A stretch of DNA of 37,783 bases, taken from the IMG/VR virus record IMGVR_UViG_3300029190_000005; one strand, 5' to 3'. The notes under the pieces were generated by a model that saw nothing but the letters and a program-made list of their open reading frames with translations, had not been told where the DNA came from and made no database searches. A program made the translations under genes and the position numbers. Shown here piece by piece: positions 5,293 through 16,417 of this stretch. The first letter of the stretch is position 1; each line of letters starts with the position of its first letter. Source of the DNA: a virus. Its lineage: Duplodnaviria; Heunggongvirae; Uroviricota; Caudoviricetes.

Positions 5293-5307
5293 TTACCGTT
5301 GAGGTAA
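5293..5307. promoter_or_regulatory. Operator-like palindrome TTACCGTTGAGGTAA (OL-like site 1)
   Basis: Perfect TTACC-N5-GGTAA at the head of the leftward operon, downstream of the repressor gene. Confidence 0.6.
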
Positions 5308-5354
5308 TAATTATGCGTATATGGTTTGATGTCAATAGATATGAGTTAAAAAAA

Positions 5355-5369
5355 TTACCCGTTAGGTAA
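5355..5369. promoter_or_regulatory. Operator-like palindrome TTACCCGTTAGGTAA (OL-like site 2)
   Basis: Perfect TTACC-N5-GGTAA; centre is 62 bp from the centre of the 5293-5307 site. Confidence 0.6.
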
Positions 5370-5381
5370 TCGAATAGGCAA

Positions 5382-5404
5382 TAAAAAAGCCGCCATAAGG
5401 CGGC
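5382..5404 (-). terminator. Rho-independent terminator downstream of the repressor gene
   Basis: Hairpin GCCGCC (5389-5394) / GGCGGC (5399-5404); on the minus strand it is followed by TTTTTTAT. Confidence 0.55.
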
Positions 5405-5426
5405 TTACTTACTGAAAAATATGGTT

Positions 5427-6011
5427 TTATTGTTTGTTTTTTTCGTTCTGGTTGATGACAAATTCAATGTAACTTTCGATCTTTGCTTTCTCGGTTTCGG
5501 GTAACAATGCGTAGCGCGAGCGATCATAGTTGATGGTCGCAGGGTCGTGCGGGTGAATCAGTAATTCATAGCCGTGACGCCCGAATGCGGATGCAACATT
5601 CTCCAGGGTGGAAATGGAAACGCTGACCTCATTGTTTAACAGGCGGCTGATTGTCACCTGGGCTACGCCGGATGCGCGGTGAAGTTTTCCCTGTGTTGAA
5701 AGGTCGCGGCTTTCGCTCATCCAGCGTTCCAGGTTGTGAGCCGCCAGCTGGCCAATGTCGCTTGGGCCGACAGGCTGAAAACCTTCCTGAGAAAGCGAGC
5801 GATCGATATCAAGCCAGTTACGGGGTTTATTGGCGGCAGCTTCAATTTTTCGCGCAACCTGATCGCCGATAACCTTCTTACCAAGAGCCCAGCGGTTTAC
5901 CAGATTTGCCTGAGTTCCAAGTTTTTCAGCCATCCGCGTCTGAACACCATTGAATTCACGGTCGATCAAGTCGTTGAGATTTTGCCTGCGGACGTCCTGG
6001 ATACTTTTCAT
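5427..6011 (-). CDS. Prophage repressor (CI-like position), HTH protein without recognisable S24 peptidase domain
   Basis: 194 aa. N-terminal HTH-like segment (RMAEKLGTQANLVNRWALGKKVIGDQVARKIE) and a second HTH-like segment (LHRASGVAQVTISRLLNNE); no Ala-Gly cleavage site or Ser/Lys dyad seen; divergent from the Cro-like gene across an operator cluster. Confidence 0.75.
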   Translation of the reverse strand: MKSIQDVRRQNLNDLIDREFNGVQTRMAEKLGTQANLVNRWALGKKVIGDQVARKIEAAANKPRNWLDIDRSLSQEGFQPVGPSDIGQLAAHNLERWMSESRDLSTQGKLHRASGVAQVTISRLLNNEVSVSISTLENVASAFGRHGYELLIHPHDPATINYDRSRYALLPETEKAKIESYIEFVINQNEKNKQ

Positions 6012-6066
6012 TTTCTGGAAAATCGCCTCATATATGAATCAGTAGATGATTCAATTTAAAGCAATA

Positions 6067-6081
6067 TTACCCAACAGGTAA
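6067..6081. promoter_or_regulatory. Operator-like palindrome TTACCCAACAGGTAA (OR-like site)
   Basis: Perfect TTACC-N5-GGTAA in the divergent repressor/cro intergenic region. Confidence 0.65.
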
Positions 6082-6083
6082 AT

Positions 6084-6129
6084 GCACCTCATGGGTAACT
6101 ATCCTTGATTTTTGTTACCTTATGGGTGA
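6084..6129. promoter_or_regulatory. Two degenerate operator-like sites plus candidate rightward promoter
   Basis: GCACCTCATGGGTAA (6084-6098) and TTACCTTATGGGTGA (6115-6129) each keep one perfect half-site; candidate -35 TTGTTA (6112-6117) and -10 TATTAT (6135-6140) lie upstream of the Cro-like start at 6166. Confidence 0.5.
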
Positions 6130-6165
6130 ATATTTATTATCTGAAATAAATATCAGGCAATAGCT

Positions 6166-6396
6166 ATGAGCGATAACGGACATTTCGATTTCAAAAAGCA
6201 CTGGCTTGCACTTACTCCGGATGAGCGTGAAGCCTTCGCACAGGAAGCCGGAACGACGAGTCACTATATCCAGACTCACTTAACAGGTAAGCGCAAAATG
6301 CCAGGTAAAGTATTGATGAATGGGCTTTTTAAAGCCTGTAAAACAAGACAATGGCTGCGCTCAAAAGCAGAACTGGCATACTTCTTCTACTCATGA
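6166..6396 (+). CDS. Cro-like small regulator
   Basis: 76-aa ORF divergent from the repressor, immediately right of the operator cluster; weak HTH-like features only. Confidence 0.55.
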   Translation: MSDNGHFDFKKHWLALTPDEREAFAQEAGTTSHYIQTHLTGKRKMPGKVLMNGLFKACKTRQWLRSKAELAYFFYS

Positions 6397-6418
6397 TATC
6401 CAGCTACAACCCTCTGTA

Positions 6419-6440
6419 GACCGCCACCCGGCGGTCTTTT
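6419..6440 (+). terminator. Rho-independent terminator after the Cro-like gene (tR1-like)
   Basis: Hairpin GACCGCC (6419-6425) / GGCGGTC (6430-6436) followed by TTTT (6437-6440). Confidence 0.5.
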
Positions 6441-6451
6441 CATATCTATTC

Positions 6452-6466
6452 GTACCTCAAAGGTAA
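6452..6466. promoter_or_regulatory. Operator-like site GTACCTCAAAGGTAA (one mismatch)
   Basis: Sits just after the tR1-like terminator and before the next gene. Confidence 0.4.
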
Positions 6467-6546
6467 TAAAAAACCAAATATGGTTGATATTTTTTTTGTG
6501 TCAGCACAAAATGACCGTAATCCCAATACTAATAACAGGGCTTACC

Positions 6547-6747
6547 ATGGAAATCATTACACGTATTGATGCCGCAAAGCGCGGACTTAAACGCTACTAC
6601 ACCGGAAAAACATGTAAGCACGGACATGACAGTGAACGCTGGGTTTACAACGGACACTGTGTTGAGTGCACCATGGAATCAAACCGTCGTATCAGGGCAG
6701 AGATTAAGCAGATCATGATTAATTCCTCCCCACAACATTCAAGCTGA
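6547..6747 (+). CDS. Small Cys/His-rich protein at the CII position (hypothetical)
   Basis: MEIITRIDAAKRGLKRYYTGKTCKHGHDSERWVYNGHCVEC... has C-x2-H ... C-x2-C spacing suggesting a zinc ribbon. Start at 6547 is my choice; the track ORF begins at 6484. Confidence 0.4.
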   Translation: MEIITRIDAAKRGLKRYYTGKTCKHGHDSERWVYNGHCVECTMESNRRIRAEIKQIMINSSPQHSS

Positions 6748-6762
6748 TAGCGGAGATTAATC

Positions 6763-7578
6763 ATGAGCAGACATGCAACAGATTGGGCCTGGGAGACAGA
6801 TCCAGGTAGCTCATCATTAAAGCTCATACTGCTCTCGATGGCTGACAGAGCCGATGAATATAACCTCTGCTACCCCAGCATAGAACGCCTCGTTAAAGAC
6901 ACTTGCCTGAATAAAAAAACCGTGCAGGCCGGGCTTATATCGCTCATGAAAATGGGGCTTATTTCAGATACCGGAGAGAGAAAGGGAGCGACAAAAAGAG
7001 TGCGGGTTTTCTCTCTTAATATAACCAAAAACGGGAACATTAAAGGCAACCGGGAGGGGGGCAATGAACCCGAAAACGGTAATGTTACCGAAAACGGGAA
7101 TATACCCAAAAACGGGATGTTGAATGATCCCAAAAACGGGATGTTGAATGATCCCAAAAACGGGATCCAGAACCAGTCATATAACCAGTCATTTAACCAA
7201 GAGAGGGAGAGCAGGACAAAAAGCGGGGATTCTGTGCCTCATGACCCCGGAGCAAACAACGCCGTGATGAATAACTTTGTTCCTCCTGGTGGGCCAGGGC
7301 AATTAGGCAAATTTGTCATGCATGAACAATGGCAGCCATCAGATGACTTTCTTCGGAAAAGCTCATTGCAGGGGATCTACCTGGACAGTCTGCCAACGGC
7401 ACAGGAACTTGCAGAGTTCAGAATTTACTGGATGGCTGAGGGTAAGGCATACCATCAGGCACAGTGGGAGCAGAAGCTGGCAAGGCGGCTGCAGATTAGC
7501 AGACAGAAGCAATCAACATTACCTGATAACAACGTTCCGCACTGGAACAGCCCTGAAGCATGGGAGGATTTCTTGTGA
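6763..7578 (+). CDS. Replication initiator (lambda O-like) with internal iterons
   Basis: 271 aa; the N-terminal HTH-like region followed by a repeat-encoded low-complexity linker (PKNGMLNDPKNGMLNDPKNG) is the typical O-like architecture. Confidence 0.75.
   Translation: MSRHATDWAWETDPGSSSLKLILLSMADRADEYNLCYPSIERLVKDTCLNKKTVQAGLISLMKMGLISDTGERKGATKRVRVFSLNITKNGNIKGNREGGNEPENGNVTENGNIPKNGMLNDPKNGMLNDPKNGIQNQSYNQSFNQERESRTKSGDSVPHDPGANNAVMNNFVPPGGPGQLGKFVMHEQWQPSDDFLRKSSLQGIYLDSLPTAQELAEFRIYWMAEGKAYHQAQWEQKLARRLQISRQKQSTLPDNNVPHWNSPEAWEDFL
7024..7174 (+). repeat. Iteron array (putative replication origin) inside the O-like gene
   Basis: About six direct repeats with core (C)CAAAAACGG(G/T)A; two adjacent 24-bp units CCCAAAAACGGGATGTTGAATGAT are identical (7105-7128 and 7129-7152). 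Confidence 0.7.
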
Positions 7579-8360
7579 ACAACGTTTTTACCGCGATACA
7601 AAACCGTGACGGAGAAGCCCTTTCTCGCATGTCAGGTTATGAGCATCAGTACGTCAACAATGACAATGTGGTGAACATGTCAGCAGAGAGGCTTGTTGAT
7701 GCCCTTTTTAAACAGCTGAAACAACTGTTTCCGGCGGCAGTGGTAACCAACCTGAAGACGCCAGAGCAGGAAGTTGCTGCAAAACAGCAGTGGATTGCTG
7801 CGTTTGCCGAAGGGGGGATCCGAACCCGTGAACAGGTTTCTGCTGGTATGCGCCACGCCCGCGCCAGTGAATCTCCGTTCTGGCCGTCTCCAGGGCAATT
7901 TATCAAGTGGTGCAAAGACAGCAAGATGGTTCTTGGCGTCACCATTGACGATGTGATGGCGGAGTTTCACCGGTACAGCAAGGAAAAAAGTTTATATCCT
8001 GGTGGTCCCGAAAGATTCCCGTGGCGACATCCGGTTATGTACTGGGTCGTATGTGATACCCGCCGTGCAATGTATCAGCGCCAGCTTAGCGAGATTGAGG
8101 TTGAGAAACACGCACGCAGGCTGCTCGATGATTGGGCGAAAAAGGTGGCTTCCGGACAGCAGATACCCGATCCGGTGATCAGCATACAGGCAAAGCCAGA
8201 GCCCATGAGTACGCCTCCGGACACAGGGAGAGACGTTTACCATCCACCAGGGCGAAGTTTCGGGTGCATGCCTAACGCCGCCACCCTTGGGGGAATAACA
8301 CCGGCGCAGTGGCTGATGGAGGAATACAGGCGGGGAAAGGCGGCAGGATTTATCAAGTAA
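7575..8360 (+). CDS. Replication protein P-like (helicase loader)
   Basis: Segment AAKQQWIAAFAEGGIRTREQVSAGMRHARASESPFWPSPGQFIKWCKD aligns by eye with lambda P as I recall it; GTG at 7575 is preceded by GGAGGA and overlaps the O-like stop. Confidence 0.8.
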   Translation: MNNVFTAIQNRDGEALSRMSGYEHQYVNNDNVVNMSAERLVDALFKQLKQLFPAAVVTNLKTPEQEVAAKQQWIAAFAEGGIRTREQVSAGMRHARASESPFWPSPGQFIKWCKDSKMVLGVTIDDVMAEFHRYSKEKSLYPGGPERFPWRHPVMYWVVCDTRRAMYQRQLSEIEVEKHARRLLDDWAKKVASGQQIPDPVISIQAKPEPMSTPPDTGRDVYHPPGRSFGCMPNAATLGGITPAQWLMEEYRRGKAAGFIK

Positions 8361-8397
8361 TACCAGCGCGATAGCGCATTTTTTTACGTCTATATGA

Positions 8398-8412
8398 TTA
8401 CCTGGAAGGTAA
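8398..8412. promoter_or_regulatory. Operator-like palindrome TTACCTGGAAGGTAA
   Basis: Perfect TTACC-N5-GGTAA in the intergenic region after the P-like gene. Confidence 0.55.
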
Positions 8413-8459
8413 TAAAATGTTCTAATCTCTATTGATTTCATGTCTTATGTGGTTTTTAA

Positions 8460-8474
8460 TTACCTAAGGGGTAA
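8460..8474. promoter_or_regulatory. Operator-like palindrome TTACCTAAGGGGTAA overlapping an RBS
   Basis: Perfect site; centre 62 bp from the 8398-8412 site; overlaps the SD (AAGGGG) of the gene starting at 8478. Confidence 0.55.
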
Positions 8475-8477
8475 ATC

Positions 8478-8825
8478 ATGAGAAAACAGATACAGGCTCT
8501 TGGTCGACTCAAAACAGGCCAGATGAACAAAACAGAATCTGCGTATTGCCAGCACCTTGAGCTGCGTAAACGTGCAGGGGAAATCGCCTGGTATCGATTC
8601 GAGGGTATCAAGCTGCGGTTAGCTAATAACACGTTCTATACGCCCGATTTCGCTGTGATGCTCGCCACCGGCGAGATGGAGCTGCACGAAGTGAAAGGGG
8701 GATTCTGGACCGATGACGCCAGAGTGAAAACCAAAGTCGCCGCAGATCAGTATCCGTTCCGAATCATCGGGGTAACGGTTAAACCAAAGAAAGCAGGTGG
8801 TGGCTGGAACATCGAAGAGTTCTGA
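8478..8825 (+). CDS. DUF1064-like phage protein (nin-region type)
   Basis: 115 aa; motifs (AWYRFEGIKLRLANNTFYTPDFAV...HEVKGGFWTDDARVKTKVAADQYP) resemble the DUF1064 family from memory. Confidence 0.5.
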   Translation: MRKQIQALGRLKTGQMNKTESAYCQHLELRKRAGEIAWYRFEGIKLRLANNTFYTPDFAVMLATGEMELHEVKGGFWTDDARVKTKVAADQYPFRIIGVTVKPKKAGGGWNIEEF

Positions 8826-10971: not shown

Positions 10972-11487
10972 ATGGCGTTAACACACCGCGAACTCTGTCA
11001 GATTGCGTACAAGTTCCTTAAGCGCAACGGGTTCAAGGTTTGTTTTCATGACCGCTTTATAGCTGTAACCAGTACCGGAGAACAGCCAGATGCTATGGGA
11101 TTCAGAAATTCAGCATCATGCCTGATAGAGGCGAAGTGTTCTCGTGCTGACTTGTTGGCAGATAGAAAAAAGCGTTTTCGTAAAAATCCGTCTCTTGGAA
11201 TGGGCGACTGGCGATTCTTTATTAGTGAGCCAGGAATTATTTCAATTGAGGATTTACCACCTGGCTGGGGATTACTTCACGTTGTTAACGGAAGAGTACG
11301 GAAAGTACATGGGTGGCCCAAGGGTAATTGCTGTTGGGGTAATCCTGACGATAAGCCATTTACTGGAAATAAGCAGGTTGAATGCGATTACATGTTATCT
11401 GCATTAAGGCGCATGGAGTTGAGAGGGCACCTTAATGAAATATATGACGGTGTAATTGTTAATAAGAAAGAAGGAAACGCAGCATGA
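10972..11487 (+). CDS. Hypothetical protein, possible PD-(D/E)XK-type nuclease fold
   Basis: ATG at 10972 with AAGGAGAG upstream; candidate catalytic arrangement D (EQPDAMGF) ... E-x-K (LIEAKCS). Weak inference. Confidence 0.4.
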   Translation: MALTHRELCQIAYKFLKRNGFKVCFHDRFIAVTSTGEQPDAMGFRNSASCLIEAKCSRADLLADRKKRFRKNPSLGMGDWRFFISEPGIISIEDLPPGWGLLHVVNGRVRKVHGWPKGNCCWGNPDDKPFTGNKQVECDYMLSALRRMELRGHLNEIYDGVIVNKKEGNAA

Positions 11488-12413
11488 TCACTATTACCAA
11501 AGAACGCCTGCTGACAATCCAGCAGTGGCGCGAAACATACGGACCTGGTAGCAACGTTGTACTGCCAGCAGAAGAAGCGGAAGAACTGGCACGAATTGCT
11601 CTGGCATCGCTGGAGCAGAATGCACTATCTGGCAACTCTCGGCTTATTCCTGGTGAAGTGTTGTCCGCAATCCGGGAGGTTGCCAAGATTCGTGCCGATT
11701 TCGATGATTTTGACGGTGACAGGCGAGGTATCGGTGATTGTCTGGATGAGGCCGAGCAAGAGCTTATCGTTACCATTAACAAATATGCCAGTCAGTTGGC
11801 AGCAGAACCGATAGCGACTAATGACGTTCGAGAGCAGCAGACAGCCGTTCCGCCAGTTCCGGAAATACAGGATGATGTCGCGCAAGCAATTGAAAATCTC
11901 AAGCAGAAGTTAGTGGAATGCAATCGCTATAACTACTGCGCAGATGCAGTTAAAGGCGTAGAGGATGCCTGCCACGCTGCCATGCTTCATAGTGCCGAAC
12001 CTGCAAGTAATCATGAAGAGTTGCCGCTTGATTATCTCCAAGGTCAAAAAGATGGTCTTGAATGGGCTGCGCAGCTTGCAGAAGCAAATCACCCACAAAC
12101 TGGCGACTGGCTTTACGATGACCCGCTGGAGGTGGCTAAAGCTATCAGAAAAGGTCCTGACATGCCCGAATTCGATGGACCAACTCCGGCAACTCCGGAT
12201 GGTTGGATAAGCTGTAGTGAGCGAATGCCGAACGATAAACAGTATGTTTGGTGTTGGGGTAAGTCTTACGGCTGGACTGAGTGCGATACCTTCGAAGGGT
12301 ATTACGATTGGTCGAGAAACAAATGGTGGGCAGTTACTGACGATGGGGAAGAACCGGCATCGAAAGTAACCCACTGGATGCCGCTACCAGAACCGCCGCA
12401 GGAGGTGAAGTGA
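11484..12413 (+). CDS. DUF551-like domain protein
   Basis: C-terminus ...WISCSERMPNDKQYVWCW...HWMPLPEPP matches the DUF551 signature as I recall it. Confidence 0.55.
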   Translation: MITITKERLLTIQQWRETYGPGSNVVLPAEEAEELARIALASLEQNALSGNSRLIPGEVLSAIREVAKIRADFDDFDGDRRGIGDCLDEAEQELIVTINKYASQLAAEPIATNDVREQQTAVPPVPEIQDDVAQAIENLKQKLVECNRYNYCADAVKGVEDACHAAMLHSAEPASNHEELPLDYLQGQKDGLEWAAQLAEANHPQTGDWLYDDPLEVAKAIRKGPDMPEFDGPTPATPDGWISCSERMPNDKQYVWCWGKSYGWTECDTFEGYYDWSRNKWWAVTDDGEEPASKVTHWMPLPEPPQEVK

Positions 12414-12535
12414 TGAACAAGTGCAACGCTCTGCTTTATGCCATGGTGATTGGTTTCGGCCTGGTTGCTGGTATCCGGGTTTATATTACCTGGGAGTCAT
12501 TAATCAATCTGGCGTGGAGTGCGATTCGTGGCTAA
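12413..12535 (+). CDS. Small hydrophobic peptide (40 aa), putative membrane peptide
   Basis: My own translation: MNKCNALLYAMVIGFGLVAGIRVYITWESLINLAWSAIRG*; strong SD GGAGGTG about 6 nt upstream; overlaps the previous stop. Confidence 0.35.
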   Translation: MNKCNALLYAMVIGFGLVAGIRVYITWESLINLAWSAIRG

Positions 12536-12830
12536 ATCCCCCGCAGAACGCAAAGCCGCGCAGCGCGCTCGGCAGTCCGCCGCCGGTGAGCGCAAAATTG
12601 AACTGGTGCTGGATAAGCAGGAGCAGGAAATGCTGGCGCGGAACTGCGCCGCCCGGCGCCCTGGTCGCGATCCCTATGAAATGGCCGAGTACATCGCGCT
12701 GCTGATCCGCCAGGATGATGCACGTGTGCGCGGGCGTATAAAATCGATCAGCAGAAACTTTGCGGTAAGTGCGGCGAGAGAGTTCCCGTTAATTCATGCC
12801 CGTGTAATGGTGACTCGCAATGCTGGGTGA
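12528..12830 (+). CDS. Hypothetical basic protein, last gene before the terminase region
   Basis: GTG at 12528 with GGAG upstream; sequence AKSPAERKAAQRARQSAAGERKIELVLDKQEQEML...; locally GC-rich. Function unknown. Confidence 0.4.
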   Translation: MAKSPAERKAAQRARQSAAGERKIELVLDKQEQEMLARNCAARRPGRDPYEMAEYIALLIRQDDARVRGRIKSISRNFAVSAAREFPLIHARVMVTRNAG

Positions 12831-12914
12831 CTAAAGGCTGGCATGAAACGAAATTAATAGTGTGACATGTCACGAGTAGATTATGCATGATGAATTTGAT
12901 GGGTTTTGAATACT

Positions 12915-15743: not shown

Positions 15744-15907
15744 GAACTGGAAGCAATGAGTTATGCCTTCCGTGGCTGTACTGGTTTACAGCATGAAGTC
15801 ATCGCAATGGCGTCCTGCTGTAAAAAGGGCGGTGATAGTCCTTCAAGGGAAACAGTCACCGCCAATCCCCTGGAACTTCTGGCATCACGGTCCTTAGGCG
15901 TGATTCT

Positions 15908-15983
15908 GGCGTGGCATGCAGGATTCGAACCTGCGACCAACCGCTTAGAAGGCGGTTGCTCTGTCCAACTGAGCTAATGCCAC
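15908..15983 (-). tRNA. tRNA-Arg (anticodon UCU)
   Basis: Minus-strand 76-nt sequence GTGGCATTAGCTCAGTTGGACAGAGCAACCGCCTTCTAAGCGGTTGGTCGCAGGTTCGAATCCTGCATGCCACGCCA folds by hand into a cloverleaf: 7-bp acceptor stem, D-arm GCTC/GAGC, anticodon stem ACCGC/GCGGT with loop CTTCTAA, T-arm GCAGG-TTCGAAT-CCTGC, encoded CCA. Confidence 0.85.
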
Positions 15984-16327: not shown

Positions 16328-16417
16328 TAATTCGTGCATTAAATGTCAACTGTCTACGATAAATAAATCATATGTGGTTAAATTGGTAATAATTTAATTG
16401 CGTACGGAGTCATTGAT

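What the first reader, a model, noticed from the sequence alone, without database searches (positions are those of the whole stretch)
5293..8474. Operator pairs with identical 62-bp centre-to-centre spacing
The two sites at the leftward promoter (centres 5300 and 5362) and the two before the DUF1064-like gene (centres 8405 and 8467) are both exactly 62 bp apart, about six helical turns. That puts paired sites on the same DNA face and suggests cooperative binding or looping at both loci.
Basis: seen in the sequence. Interest (0 to 1): 0.55.

Follow-up and report, generated by a model that had tools for sequence, protein, structure and literature searches.

The report
Phased repressor operator pairs, phiV10-like prophage
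Two promoters of a phiV10/epsilon15-type E. coli prophage are each bracketed by two binding sites for the phage's repressor exactly 62 bp (about six DNA turns) apart. This geometry is kept across related phages and fits one four-subunit repressor gripping both sites at once, so it is a real but fairly ordinary example of a known kind of gene switch.

Summary
Perfect TTACC-N5-GGTAA palindromes lie at 5293-5307, 5355-5369, 8398-8412 and 8460-8474, with centres 62 bp apart at both loci.

The window is a phiV10/epsilon15-like (Uetakevirus) prophage. The sites belong to a set of about 16-17 operators (11 perfect; 0 expected) placed at nearly every transcription unit. The repressor (5427..6011, minus strand) is a full-length homologue of Salmonella phage SPC32H Rep. 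That protein is a solved tetramer, it does not self-cleave, and it is inactivated by a LexA-controlled antirepressor. The antirepressor gene and its LexA box are also present here.

Both 62-bp pairs are copies of one promoter cassette: distal operator, 19 nt, -35, 17 nt, then a -10 that abuts the proximal operator. This places the operators at about -62 and +1.

The spacing is 62±1 bp in 11 genomes whose Rep proteins are 42-100% identical. Across 205 Rep-encoding loci, promoter-flanking pairs fall only into three classes: 52-53, 61-64 and 73-75 bp, which is about 5, 6 and 7 helical turns. That supports same-face bridging by one Rep tetramer, but the bridging is inferred, not shown.

The epsilon15 GenBank record already annotates most of these sites as repressor-binding. 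I classify this as a new member of a known kind, of moderate interest.

The parts
5293..5307 (.). Proximal operator of the early-left promoter (TTACCGTTGAGGTAA), centre 5300. It abuts the -10 and covers the inferred start site.
5355..5369 (.). Distal operator of the early-left promoter (TTACCCGTTAGGTAA), centre 5362. It lies 19 nt upstream of the -35, at about -62.
5307..5335 (-). Early-left promoter: -35 TTGACA (5335-5330), 17-nt spacer, -10 AATTAT (5312-5307). It matches 10 of 12 consensus positions.
5387..5406 (-). Intrinsic terminator of the repressor gene, immediately upstream of the distal operator.
   Evidence: annotated in phiV10
5427..6011 (-). Repressor Rep, 194 aa. It has an N-terminal HTH DNA-binding domain, a middle HTH_3-like dimerisation domain and a C-terminal tetramerisation/Ant-binding domain.
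   Evidence: Pfam. Full-length match to SPC32H Rep, PDB 5D50, E 4e-42. Domain roles from PMC9986798.
6067..6129 (.). Three operators between rep and the divergent early-right gene: 6067-6081 (perfect), 6084-6098 (2 mismatches) and 6115-6129 (1 mismatch). Their centres are 17 and 31 bp apart. They overlap the rightward promoter TTGTTA-17-TATTAT (6112-6140).
   Evidence: The same 17/30-31 layout occurs in epsilon15, SPC32H, Citrobacter and Erwinia.
8398..8412 (.). Distal operator of the second cassette (TTACCTGGAAGGTAA), centre 8405, 19 nt upstream of the -35.
8432..8460 (+). Inferred rightward promoter of the DUF1064 operon: -35 TTGATT (8432-8437), 17-nt spacer, -10 TTTAAT (8455-8460). It is weaker than consensus and was not called by the scanner.
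   Evidence: Read from the sequence. It is in register with the pL cassette. It was not listed.
8460..8474 (.). Proximal operator of the second cassette (TTACCTAAGGGGTAA), centre 8467. It contains the Shine-Dalgarno sequence of the DUF1064 gene, whose ATG is at 8478.
8478..8825 (+). DUF1064 gene, the first gene downstream of the second cassette.
35589..35846 (-). Antirepressor Ant, 85 aa, 88% identical to SPC32H Ant.
35868..35883 (.). LexA (SOS) box CTGTATGTTTATACAG, 22 nt upstream of ant.
35923..35937 (.). Operator between ant and the tailspike gene. It is one of the further single or paired operators at 211, 6452, 12952, 12970, 15689, 16313, 33414, 34474 and 34599.

Best explanation
The four sites are operators of the prophage's SPC32H-type repressor Rep (5427..6011, minus strand). 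Each pair brackets one sigma-70 promoter of a conserved cassette: distal operator, 19 nt of A/T-rich DNA, -35, a 17-nt spacer, then a -10 whose last base is the first base of the proximal operator. The proximal operator therefore sits on the inferred transcription start and the distal one at about -62.

Rep is a homotetramer by homology, and its four N-terminal HTH domains form two DNA-binding pairs. The proposed mechanism is that one tetramer binds both operators on the same face of the helix (62 bp = 5.9 turns). It would clamp or loop the roughly 47 bp that carry the -35 and -10. This would give cooperative, tight repression of the early-left operon and of the operon downstream of the replication genes during lysogeny. 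Repression would be lifted when the LexA-controlled antirepressor Ant breaks up the tetramer.

Shown here: site positions, enrichment, cassette architecture, conservation and helical phasing of the spacing, and homology of Rep and Ant. Inferred: that Rep binds these sites, the start-site position, and the bridging of the two sites by one tetramer.
For: (1) Sites and spacing are as described, and the motif is hugely enriched.

(2) The element is a phiV10-like Uetakevirus prophage.

(3) Rep matches SPC32H Rep (PDB 5D50) over its full length at E 4e-42. It has no S24 peptidase domain. Published summaries say that SPC32H Rep binds palindromic DNA as a tetramer, that the DNA-binding pairs are formed across dimers, and that Ant breaks the tetramer (PMC9638917). 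Its two pairs of dimerisation domains point in opposite directions about 100 A apart, and its C-terminal fold is the p53-like 'TetDloop' linked to DNA looping (PMC9986798). The tetramer-interface aromatics Phe187/Phe190 correspond to Tyr181/Phe184 here.

(4) Ant is 88% identical to SPC32H Ant and is preceded by a perfect LexA box.

(5) GenBank AY150271.2 annotates the homologous epsilon15 sites as repressor-binding.

(6) All lineages share the operator consensus and an invariant NLVNRW recognition helix.

(7) Spacing is 62 (18 cases), 63 (2) or 61 (2) at the two loci of 11 genomes. Their inter-operator DNA is only 60-87% identical, with no larger indels. Meanwhile the distance from rep to the distal operator varies from 21 to 153 bp.

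(8) In 205 Rep-encoding loci, promoter-flanking pair clusters fall only at 52-53, 61-64 and 73-75 bp. The mean phase is -0.02 turn at 10.5 bp/turn, with R = 0.85. Operator pairs that do not flank a promoter (71, 76, 80, 84, 86, 106 bp) are unphased.
Against: - No binding, footprint or cooperativity data exist for this phage, and none could be generated here.
- The two primary SPC32H papers (PMC4983836, PMC3807360) and the epsilon15 genome paper were not available, so Rep's operator usage rests on secondary summaries and a GenBank annotation.
- The 21 spacing clusters are related by descent. With only the three size classes counted as independent, the phasing test is underpowered (p about 0.07).
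- A tetramer whose DNA-binding pairs are about 100 A apart must either bend 62 bp (211 A of DNA) strongly or use its roughly 20-residue linkers fully extended.
- At the rep-proximal control region the operators are 17 and 31 bp apart, which is not integral turns, so Rep clearly also works in other geometries.
- The -10 of the second cassette (TTTAAT) is poor, and no transcription start site is known.
Confidence: 0.6

Rival explanations
1. The sites are independent and only the cassette is inherited. Both operators bind Rep but without communicating. The proximal one blocks RNA polymerase. The distal one has its own job: it occludes the A/T-rich UP-like DNA next to it, or acts as a roadblock to read-through from the terminator just upstream. 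The spacing is the same at both loci only because both are copies of one promoter cassette.
For: - The two cassettes are similar in register in every genome (22-29 of 47 positions against about 14 expected), so equal spacing within a genome follows from common origin.
- Each distal operator directly follows a terminator.
- Each distal operator directly precedes a T/A-rich stretch, at about -54 to -45.
Against: - Neither a roadblock nor UP occlusion needs ±1-bp precision.
- The flanking non-coding lengths vary freely (21-153 bp) while the inter-operator length does not.
- When the length does change in distant lineages, it changes by 9-13 bp, about one turn, and not by intermediate amounts.
- The repressor homologue is a tetramer with two DNA-binding units.
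Confidence: 0.25
2. The distal site is an activator position. A centre at about -62 equals the classical class I activator position (-61.5, as for CRP at lac; my own knowledge). Rep, or a second protein with the same specificity such as the 76-aa Cro-like product of 6166..6396, would bind there to stimulate the promoter when the proximal site is free.
For: The inferred start site at the centre of the proximal operator puts the distal centre at about -62. The second cassette has a weak -10 that might need help.
Against: - The start site is only inferred.
- pL already matches consensus at 10 of 12 positions.
- The alternative spacings of 52-53 and 73-75 change the distance in different ways. In one the distal site moves closer to the -35. 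In the other the proximal site moves downstream. That conserves inter-site phase rather than a fixed distance from the promoter.
- No evidence exists for a second protein with this specificity.
Confidence: 0.07
3. The palindromes are not Rep operators. They would bind another phage or host factor, or be a non-protein-binding repeat.
For: No direct binding data for this phage were available. A second palindrome class (AACCATATATGGTT) also recurs at the same promoters, which shows that more than one factor may act there.
Against: - Three sites sit between rep and the divergent early gene, the classical operator position.
- The motif is present in every genome that encodes a full-length Rep with the invariant NLVNRW helix. 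It is essentially absent (at most one single-mismatch match) from five loci that encode only distant N-terminal-domain relatives.
- The epsilon15 depositors annotate the sites as repressor-binding.
- A 15-bp inverted repeat fits an HTH pair.
Confidence: 0.05

Closest known systems
Rep/Ant immunity system of Salmonella phage SPC32H (Kim & Ryu 2013; Kim et al. 2016; PDB 5D50, 5D4Z)
   Same: - Rep is homologous over its full length (E 4e-42).
- Ant is 88% identical.
- A LexA box lies upstream of ant.
- The operator consensus is the same, and SPC32H itself has the 62-bp pairs at both loci (33604/33666 and 35972/36034).
   Different: - Rep is only about 42% identical, and most of the divergence is in the C-terminal half.
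- The host is E. coli.
- This prophage also carries a BRO-N protein that others call an antirepressor (PMC9782041).
- Whether the SPC32H papers describe the 62-bp pairs could not be checked, because the papers were not held.
Annotated repressor-binding sites of phage epsilon15 (GenBank AY150271.2) and the phiV10 / vB_EcoP_ZX5 repressor
   Same: - The epsilon15 record marks homologous sites as 'protein_bind: repressor' at the terminase, portal, tailspike, early-left and post-replication promoters.
- The ZX5 repressor is identical in sequence to phiV10's repressor, which tblastn shows is 100% identical to this one. Over-expressing it shuts off lytic genes (PMC9782041).
   Different: - At the post-replication promoter the epsilon15 record marks only the distal site (35906-35922), not its partner at 35969-35983.
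- Neither the 62-bp regularity nor its phasing is annotated.
- The phiV10 record annotates no operators at all.
Cooperative binding of lambda CI to operators separated by integral helical turns, and Lac repressor O1-O3 loops (my own knowledge: Hochschild & Ptashne 1986; PMC3592455 for lac)
   Same: Two operators for one oligomeric repressor lie on the same helical face and bracket or adjoin a promoter. Separations of about 5, 6 and 7 turns are allowed and half-integral ones are not.
   Different: - The proteins are unrelated in their oligomerisation domains.
- Rep is not RecA-cleavable.
- Here the tiny loop would enclose the whole core promoter.
- Cooperativity has not been measured.
Rco of Bacillus plasmid pLS20 (TetDloop tetramer looping two operators 75 bp apart; PMC9986798)
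   Same: It has an N-terminal HTH and a C-terminal p53-like tetramerisation fold, the fold that paper also recognises in SPC32H Rep. It uses a short inter-operator distance (75 bp) and is relieved by an antirepressor.
   Different: - Rco binds arrays of direct repeats, and several tetramers take part.
- Here each operator is a single 15-bp palindrome.
- There is no detectable sequence similarity in the tetramerisation domain.
Stoperators of cluster A mycobacteriophages (my own knowledge)
   Same: One repressor has many sites distributed over the whole prophage genome.
   Different: Stoperators are asymmetric, oriented and mostly within transcribed regions, where they block elongation. Here the sites are palindromic and sit at promoters.

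Membership tests
SPC32H-type Rep/Ant prophage immunity (Uetakevirus) | Repressor homologous to SPC32H Rep over all three domains (DNA-binding, dimerisation, tetramerisation/Ant-binding) | tested here: met
   phmmer against PDB: 5D50_A, E 4e-42, query residues 1-190 aligned to 2-197. Alignment.
SPC32H-type Rep/Ant prophage immunity (Uetakevirus) | Repressor lacks the RecA-dependent self-cleaving (S24 peptidase) domain | tested here: met
   Pfam scan finds only HTH-type domains and no Peptidase_S24.
SPC32H-type Rep/Ant prophage immunity (Uetakevirus) | Small antirepressor Ant encoded next to the tailspike gene | tested here: met
   The protein from 35589..35846(-) is 88% identical to SPC32H Ant, E 1e-57. 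Gene order is as in SPC32H.
SPC32H-type Rep/Ant prophage immunity (Uetakevirus) | LexA box at the ant promoter | tested here: met
   CTGTATGTTTATACAG at 35868-35883, 22 nt upstream of ant. LexA binding itself was not tested.
SPC32H-type Rep/Ant prophage immunity (Uetakevirus) | Rep is a tetramer on DNA and is dissociated by Ant | not testable with these tools
   Known only by homology. The interface aromatics F187/F190 of SPC32H Rep align with Y181/F184 here.
In-phase dual-operator repression (lac / lambda-type cooperative bridging) | Two operators of the same sequence class bracket or adjoin one promoter | tested here: met
   Both loci have a distal operator 19 nt upstream of the -35 and a proximal operator abutting the -10.
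In-phase dual-operator repression (lac / lambda-type cooperative bridging) | Centre-to-centre distance is an integral number of helical turns and is conserved as such | tested here: met
   - 62 bp is 5.9 turns.
- 22 pairs in 11 genomes measure 61-63 bp.
- Distant lineages measure 52-53 or 73-75 bp and nothing in between.
- Mean phase is -0.02 turn.
- Statistical power is limited by shared descent.
In-phase dual-operator repression (lac / lambda-type cooperative bridging) | Measured cooperativity or loop formation that depends on helical phase | not testable with these tools
   Needs EMSA or footprinting and phase-shift insertions.
Lambda CI-type (LexA-like, self-cleaving) repressor | C-terminal S24 peptidase domain with a cleavage site | tested here: not met
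   No S24 domain. The closest structure is SPC32H Rep.

The most novel reading that the evidence does not exclude
Rep works as a molecular caliper. One tetramer spans the core promoter and accepts only operator pairs 5, 6 or 7 helical turns apart. Evolution would then move operators in whole-turn steps (52-53, 61-64, 73-75 bp).

The same cassettes would carry a second, so far undescribed palindromic site (AACCATATATGGTT) in the -35/-10 spacer for a second regulator.

All Uetakevirus lineages would share one operator code and a nearly identical Ant, although their Rep proteins have diverged to about 42% identity. Immunity specificity in this genus would then not be set at the operator.
Probability: 0.3. 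Interest if true: 0.6.

Novelty: new member of a known kind. Interest (0 to 1): 0.42.

Why it matters
The structure of SPC32H Rep showed an unusual tetramer whose DNA-binding pairs form across dimers. How it represses promoters is still described as poorly characterised (PMC9986798).

The conserved, phase-locked operator pairs at about -62 and +1 give a concrete and cheaply testable model: one tetramer bridges both sites and encloses the promoter. These prophages sit in about a tenth of complete E. coli genomes (564 of 5426) and are used as reporter and typing phages. A map of the roughly 16-17 operators also tells which transcription units are silenced directly in the lysogen. These include the integrase, terminase, portal and tailspike units.

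The principle, cooperative in-phase operators, is textbook. The gain is in understanding this family, not a new concept.

Tried and rejected
- Papers: the epsilon15 genome paper was tried by PubMed id, PMC id and DOI. The two SPC32H papers were tried by PMC id. None is held, so I could not check whether the operators or the 62-bp spacing are described there. Literature searches for Uetakevirus operators found nothing relevant.
It was not pursued, since a solved homologue exists.
- IMG/VR protein-based locus search returned only 100%-identical Rep loci. It was useful only to show rare ±1-bp variants. Diversity came instead from the genome collection and DNA-pattern scans.
- I tested whether other single operators in the window have a partner or half-site at 61-63 bp. 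Only the portal-operon site (16313) has a GGTAA half-site at +62. The tailspike site's half-site is at +50, so there is no general rule.
- I considered that ATATGGTT was an extended -10 or an IHF site. The positions do not fit either consistently. It is better described as half of a 14-bp palindrome.
- Chance was rejected as an explanation of the motif.
- A lambda-type CI reading was rejected.

Full report
**Observation.** Perfect TTACC-N5-GGTAA palindromes lie at 5293-5307, 5355-5369, 8398-8412 and 8460-8474. Their centres are 5300, 5362, 8405 and 8467, so each pair is 62 bp apart. The motif cannot be chance. There are 11 perfect copies in 37.8 kb against none in 100 shuffles. There are 16 copies with at most 1 mismatch against 0.67 expected, and 36 with at most 2 mismatches against 11 expected.

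**What the window is.** The region is 97-98% identical to Escherichia phages phiV10, vB_EcoP_PAS61 and phiv142-3 (genus Uetakevirus, the epsilon15 group). It occurs in 564 of 5426 complete E. coli genomes. The RefSeq annotation of an identical copy shows a prophage inserted next to guaA. Its gene order is integrase, early-left recombination genes, a helix-turn-helix repressor, DnaT-like and P-like replication genes, DUF1064, terminase, portal, capsid, tail, BRO-N, a small gene and tailspike.

**The sites form a genome-wide set.** Besides the two pairs, the motif lies at these positions:
- upstream of the integrase gene (211);
- three times between the repressor gene and the divergent early gene (6067, 6084, 6115; centres 17 and 31 bp apart);
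- after the first early-right terminator (6452);
- before the small terminase gene (12952, 12970);
- before a leftward gene next to a tRNA-Arg (15689);
- before the portal operon (16313);
- around the BRO-N gene (33414, 34474, 34599);
- between the antirepressor gene and the tailspike gene (35923).

Almost every transcription unit therefore carries at least one site.

**The repressor.** The 194-aa product of 5427..6011 (minus strand) has HTH-type matches only and no S24 peptidase domain. It aligns over its whole length with the repressor Rep of Salmonella phage SPC32H (PDB 5D50, E 4e-42).

I could not obtain the primary papers. Two open papers summarise them:
- Rep binds palindromic DNA as a tetramer and binds only weakly as a dimer. 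The two N-terminal domains that read one palindrome come from different dimers. A tetrameric antirepressor Ant breaks the tetramer (PMC9638917).
- Rep consists of an N-terminal DNA-binding domain, a middle dimerisation domain and a C-terminal p53-like tetramerisation fold. The two pairs of dimerisation domains point in opposite directions about 100 A apart. The repression mechanism 'has not been extensively characterized' (PMC9986798).

The interface residues Phe187/Phe190 of SPC32H Rep align with Tyr181/Phe184 here. The window also encodes an 85-aa protein that is 88% identical to SPC32H Ant (35589..35846, minus strand). A perfect LexA box, CTGTATGTTTATACAG, lies at 35868-35883, 22 nt upstream of it. 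The prophage is therefore a member of the SPC32H-type Rep/Ant immunity family.

For the identical repressor of phage ZX5, over-expression reduced endolysin and holin transcripts by more than 99.9% (PMC9782041).

**That the palindromes are Rep operators is inferred, but on good grounds.**
- Three of them occupy the classical position between the repressor gene and the divergent early promoter.
- The epsilon15 GenBank record (AY150271.2) annotates the homologous sites as 'protein_bind: repressor'.
- The motif is present in every genome that has a full-length Rep with the invariant NLVNRW helix. It is essentially absent (at most one single-mismatch match) from five loci that encode only distant relatives of the N-terminal domain.

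**Anatomy of the pairs.** Both pairs bracket a promoter, and they do so in the same way.

On the minus strand the early-left promoter reads as follows. The distal operator is 5369-5355. Then come 19 nt beginning with a T-run, then TTGACA (5335-5330), 17 nt, and AATTAT (5312-5307). The last base of this -10 is the first base of the proximal operator (5307-5293).

On the plus strand the second locus reads in the same order. The distal operator is 8398-8412. Then come 19 nt, TTGATT (8432-8437), 17 nt, and TTTAAT (8455-8460). The last base of this -10 is the first base of the proximal operator (8460-8474). That operator contains the Shine-Dalgarno sequence of the DUF1064 gene.

With a start about 7 nt after the -10, the proximal operator is centred on the start site and the distal one at about -62. 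This is inference. Each distal operator directly follows a terminator.

The two cassettes are similar in register in every genome examined: 22-29 of 47 inter-operator positions against about 14 expected, p at most 0.0065. An invariant CTATTGA lies at the -35. The equality of the two spacings within one genome therefore has a simple origin, which is one cassette used twice. The question then becomes whether the length is maintained by selection.

**Comparative test.** I checked 11 genomes: this window, Enterobacter phage Tyrion, Superficieibacter, Erwinia dacicola, two Klebsiella, two Citrobacter, Scandinavium, epsilon15 and SPC32H. Their Rep proteins are 42-100% identical to the one here.

At the two loci the spacing is 62 bp in 18 cases, 63 in 2 (Klebsiella early-left) and 61 in 2 (Scandinavium). 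The inter-operator DNA has diverged to 60-87% identity without larger indels. The non-coding distance from rep to the distal operator ranges from 21 to 153 bp. The downstream gene also differs between lineages: DUF1064 in some and a RuvC-like gene in others.

I then scanned IMG/VR for operator pairs at any spacing from 31 to 94 bp. Promoter-flanking pairs fall into three classes only:
- 52-53 bp: 2 clusters;
- 61-64 bp: 13 clusters;
- 73-75 bp: 6 clusters.

These correspond to 4.95-5.05, 5.8-6.1 and 7.0-7.1 turns of 10.5 bp. Nothing lies at 54-60 or 65-72 bp.

The sequences show how the jumps arose. In the 73-75 class the operator abutting the -10 has decayed to a half-site, and a new full operator lies 12 bp downstream. 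In the 52-53 class the distal operator sits 8 nt rather than 19 nt from the -35.

The mean phase is -0.02 turn, with R = 0.85 for 21 clusters. These clusters share ancestry. With only the three classes counted as independent, p is about 0.07. Operator pairs that do not bracket a promoter (proximal operator to a third site downstream) are spaced 71, 76, 80, 84, 86 or 106 bp and show no phase preference.

**Mechanism.** The best reading is that one Rep tetramer, with two DNA-binding pairs, occupies both operators on one face of the helix and clamps or loops the core promoter between them. This would give cooperative occupancy of the site that blocks RNA polymerase.

The geometry is demanding but not impossible. 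62 bp is about 211 A of DNA. The dimerisation-domain pairs are about 100 A apart, and each DNA-binding domain hangs on a linker of about 20 residues. So either the linkers stretch, or the A/T-rich DNA next to the distal operator bends.

I put this reading at 0.6. The main rival (0.25) is that the sites act independently and the cassette is simply inherited whole. That rival does not explain the ±1-bp precision or the whole-turn jumps. A class I activator-like role of the -62 site (0.07) and a non-Rep ligand (0.05) are less likely.

**Comparison with what is known.** This is a member of the SPC32H Rep/Ant family, and all testable defining features are met. It works like the classical in-phase operator pairs of lambda CI and Lac repressor, and like the 75-bp loop of Rco from pLS20.

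Most of the sites are already annotated in the epsilon15 record. At the post-replication promoter, however, only the distal partner is marked there. The phiV10 record marks none. I found no statement of the 62-bp rule or its phasing in the literature I could read.

**Verdict.** The finding is real and correctly read in outline. It is a new member of a known kind and of moderate interest. Its value is a specific, easily tested model for how this unusual tetrameric repressor engages promoters.

Noticed in passing
window 5313-5326, 6472-6485, 16366-16379, 34516-34529, 35964-35977 (degenerate copy about 8441-8454); L005 (Tyrion) 26452-26465, 34215, 35385, 37308; L003 (epsilon15) 2985, 33749: A second palindrome, AACCATATATGGTT (ACC-N6-GGT, distinct from the Rep operator ACC-N5-GGT), recurs at the same promoters. 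There are 7 hits with at most 3 mismatches against 1.6 expected in the window, and 9 against 1.5 in Tyrion, including one perfect copy before the holin gene. In both 62-bp cassettes it lies in the -35/-10 spacer, 19.5 bp from the centre of the proximal operator. It may be the site of a second regulator, for example the 76-aa Cro-like protein from 6166..6396.
   Followed up: partly
window 35589-35846 (-) versus 5427-6011 (-): Ant is 88% identical to SPC32H Ant, yet Rep, whose C-terminal domain Ant binds, is only about 42% identical to SPC32H Rep. All lineages (Rep 42-100% identical) also share one operator consensus and an invariant NLVNRW helix. Immunity specificity in this genus may therefore not reside in operator recognition.
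   Followed up: partly
window 35868-35883: A perfect SOS (LexA) box, CTGTATGTTTATACAG, lies 22 nt upstream of the ant gene. A Rep operator (35923-35937) lies 40 bp further on, so ant may be under double control by LexA and Rep.
   Followed up: partly
window 7068-7199: There are direct-repeat arrays inside the DnaT-like replication gene: an 18-bp unit x2.8, a perfect 24-bp unit CCCAAAAACGGGATGTTGAATGAT x2.6, and a 12-bp unit x2.4. This looks like an iteron-type replication origin embedded in the initiator gene, as in lambdoid O genes.
   Followed up: partly
window 6452-6512: A single operator (GTACCTCAAAGGTAA) follows the terminator of the 76-aa gene. It lies next to both a rightward promoter-like site (TTGATA-17-CAAAAT, 6484-6512) and a leftward one (CTGACA-16-CATATT, 6504-6477). 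The leftward one would make an RNA antisense to the 3' end of the 76-aa gene, an oop-like arrangement.
   Followed up: no
window 34474-34488 and 34599-34613: Two operators 125 bp apart (11.9 turns, also in phase) bracket the divergent region between the BRO-N gene and a YafO-type toxin operon. A further operator lies at 33414-33428, downstream of the BRO-N gene.
   Followed up: no
window 8460-8474 and homologous sites in 10 other genomes: The variable 5-bp core of the proximal operator of the second cassette is purine-rich in several lineages (GAGAG, AAGGG). It doubles as the Shine-Dalgarno sequence of the first gene, leaving a leader of only about 11 nt if the inferred start site is right.
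   Followed up: no
window about 10972-12865 (L002 11972-13865): RefSeq marks several frameshifted or partial genes in the late part of the early-right operon of the identical prophage, including a DUF551 fragment. That suggests some decay in this copy.
   Followed up: no
window 15907-15983 (-): A prophage-borne tRNA-Arg gene lies between the terminase and portal operons, according to the RefSeq annotation of the identical copy. SPC32H has one at the same place.
   Followed up: no
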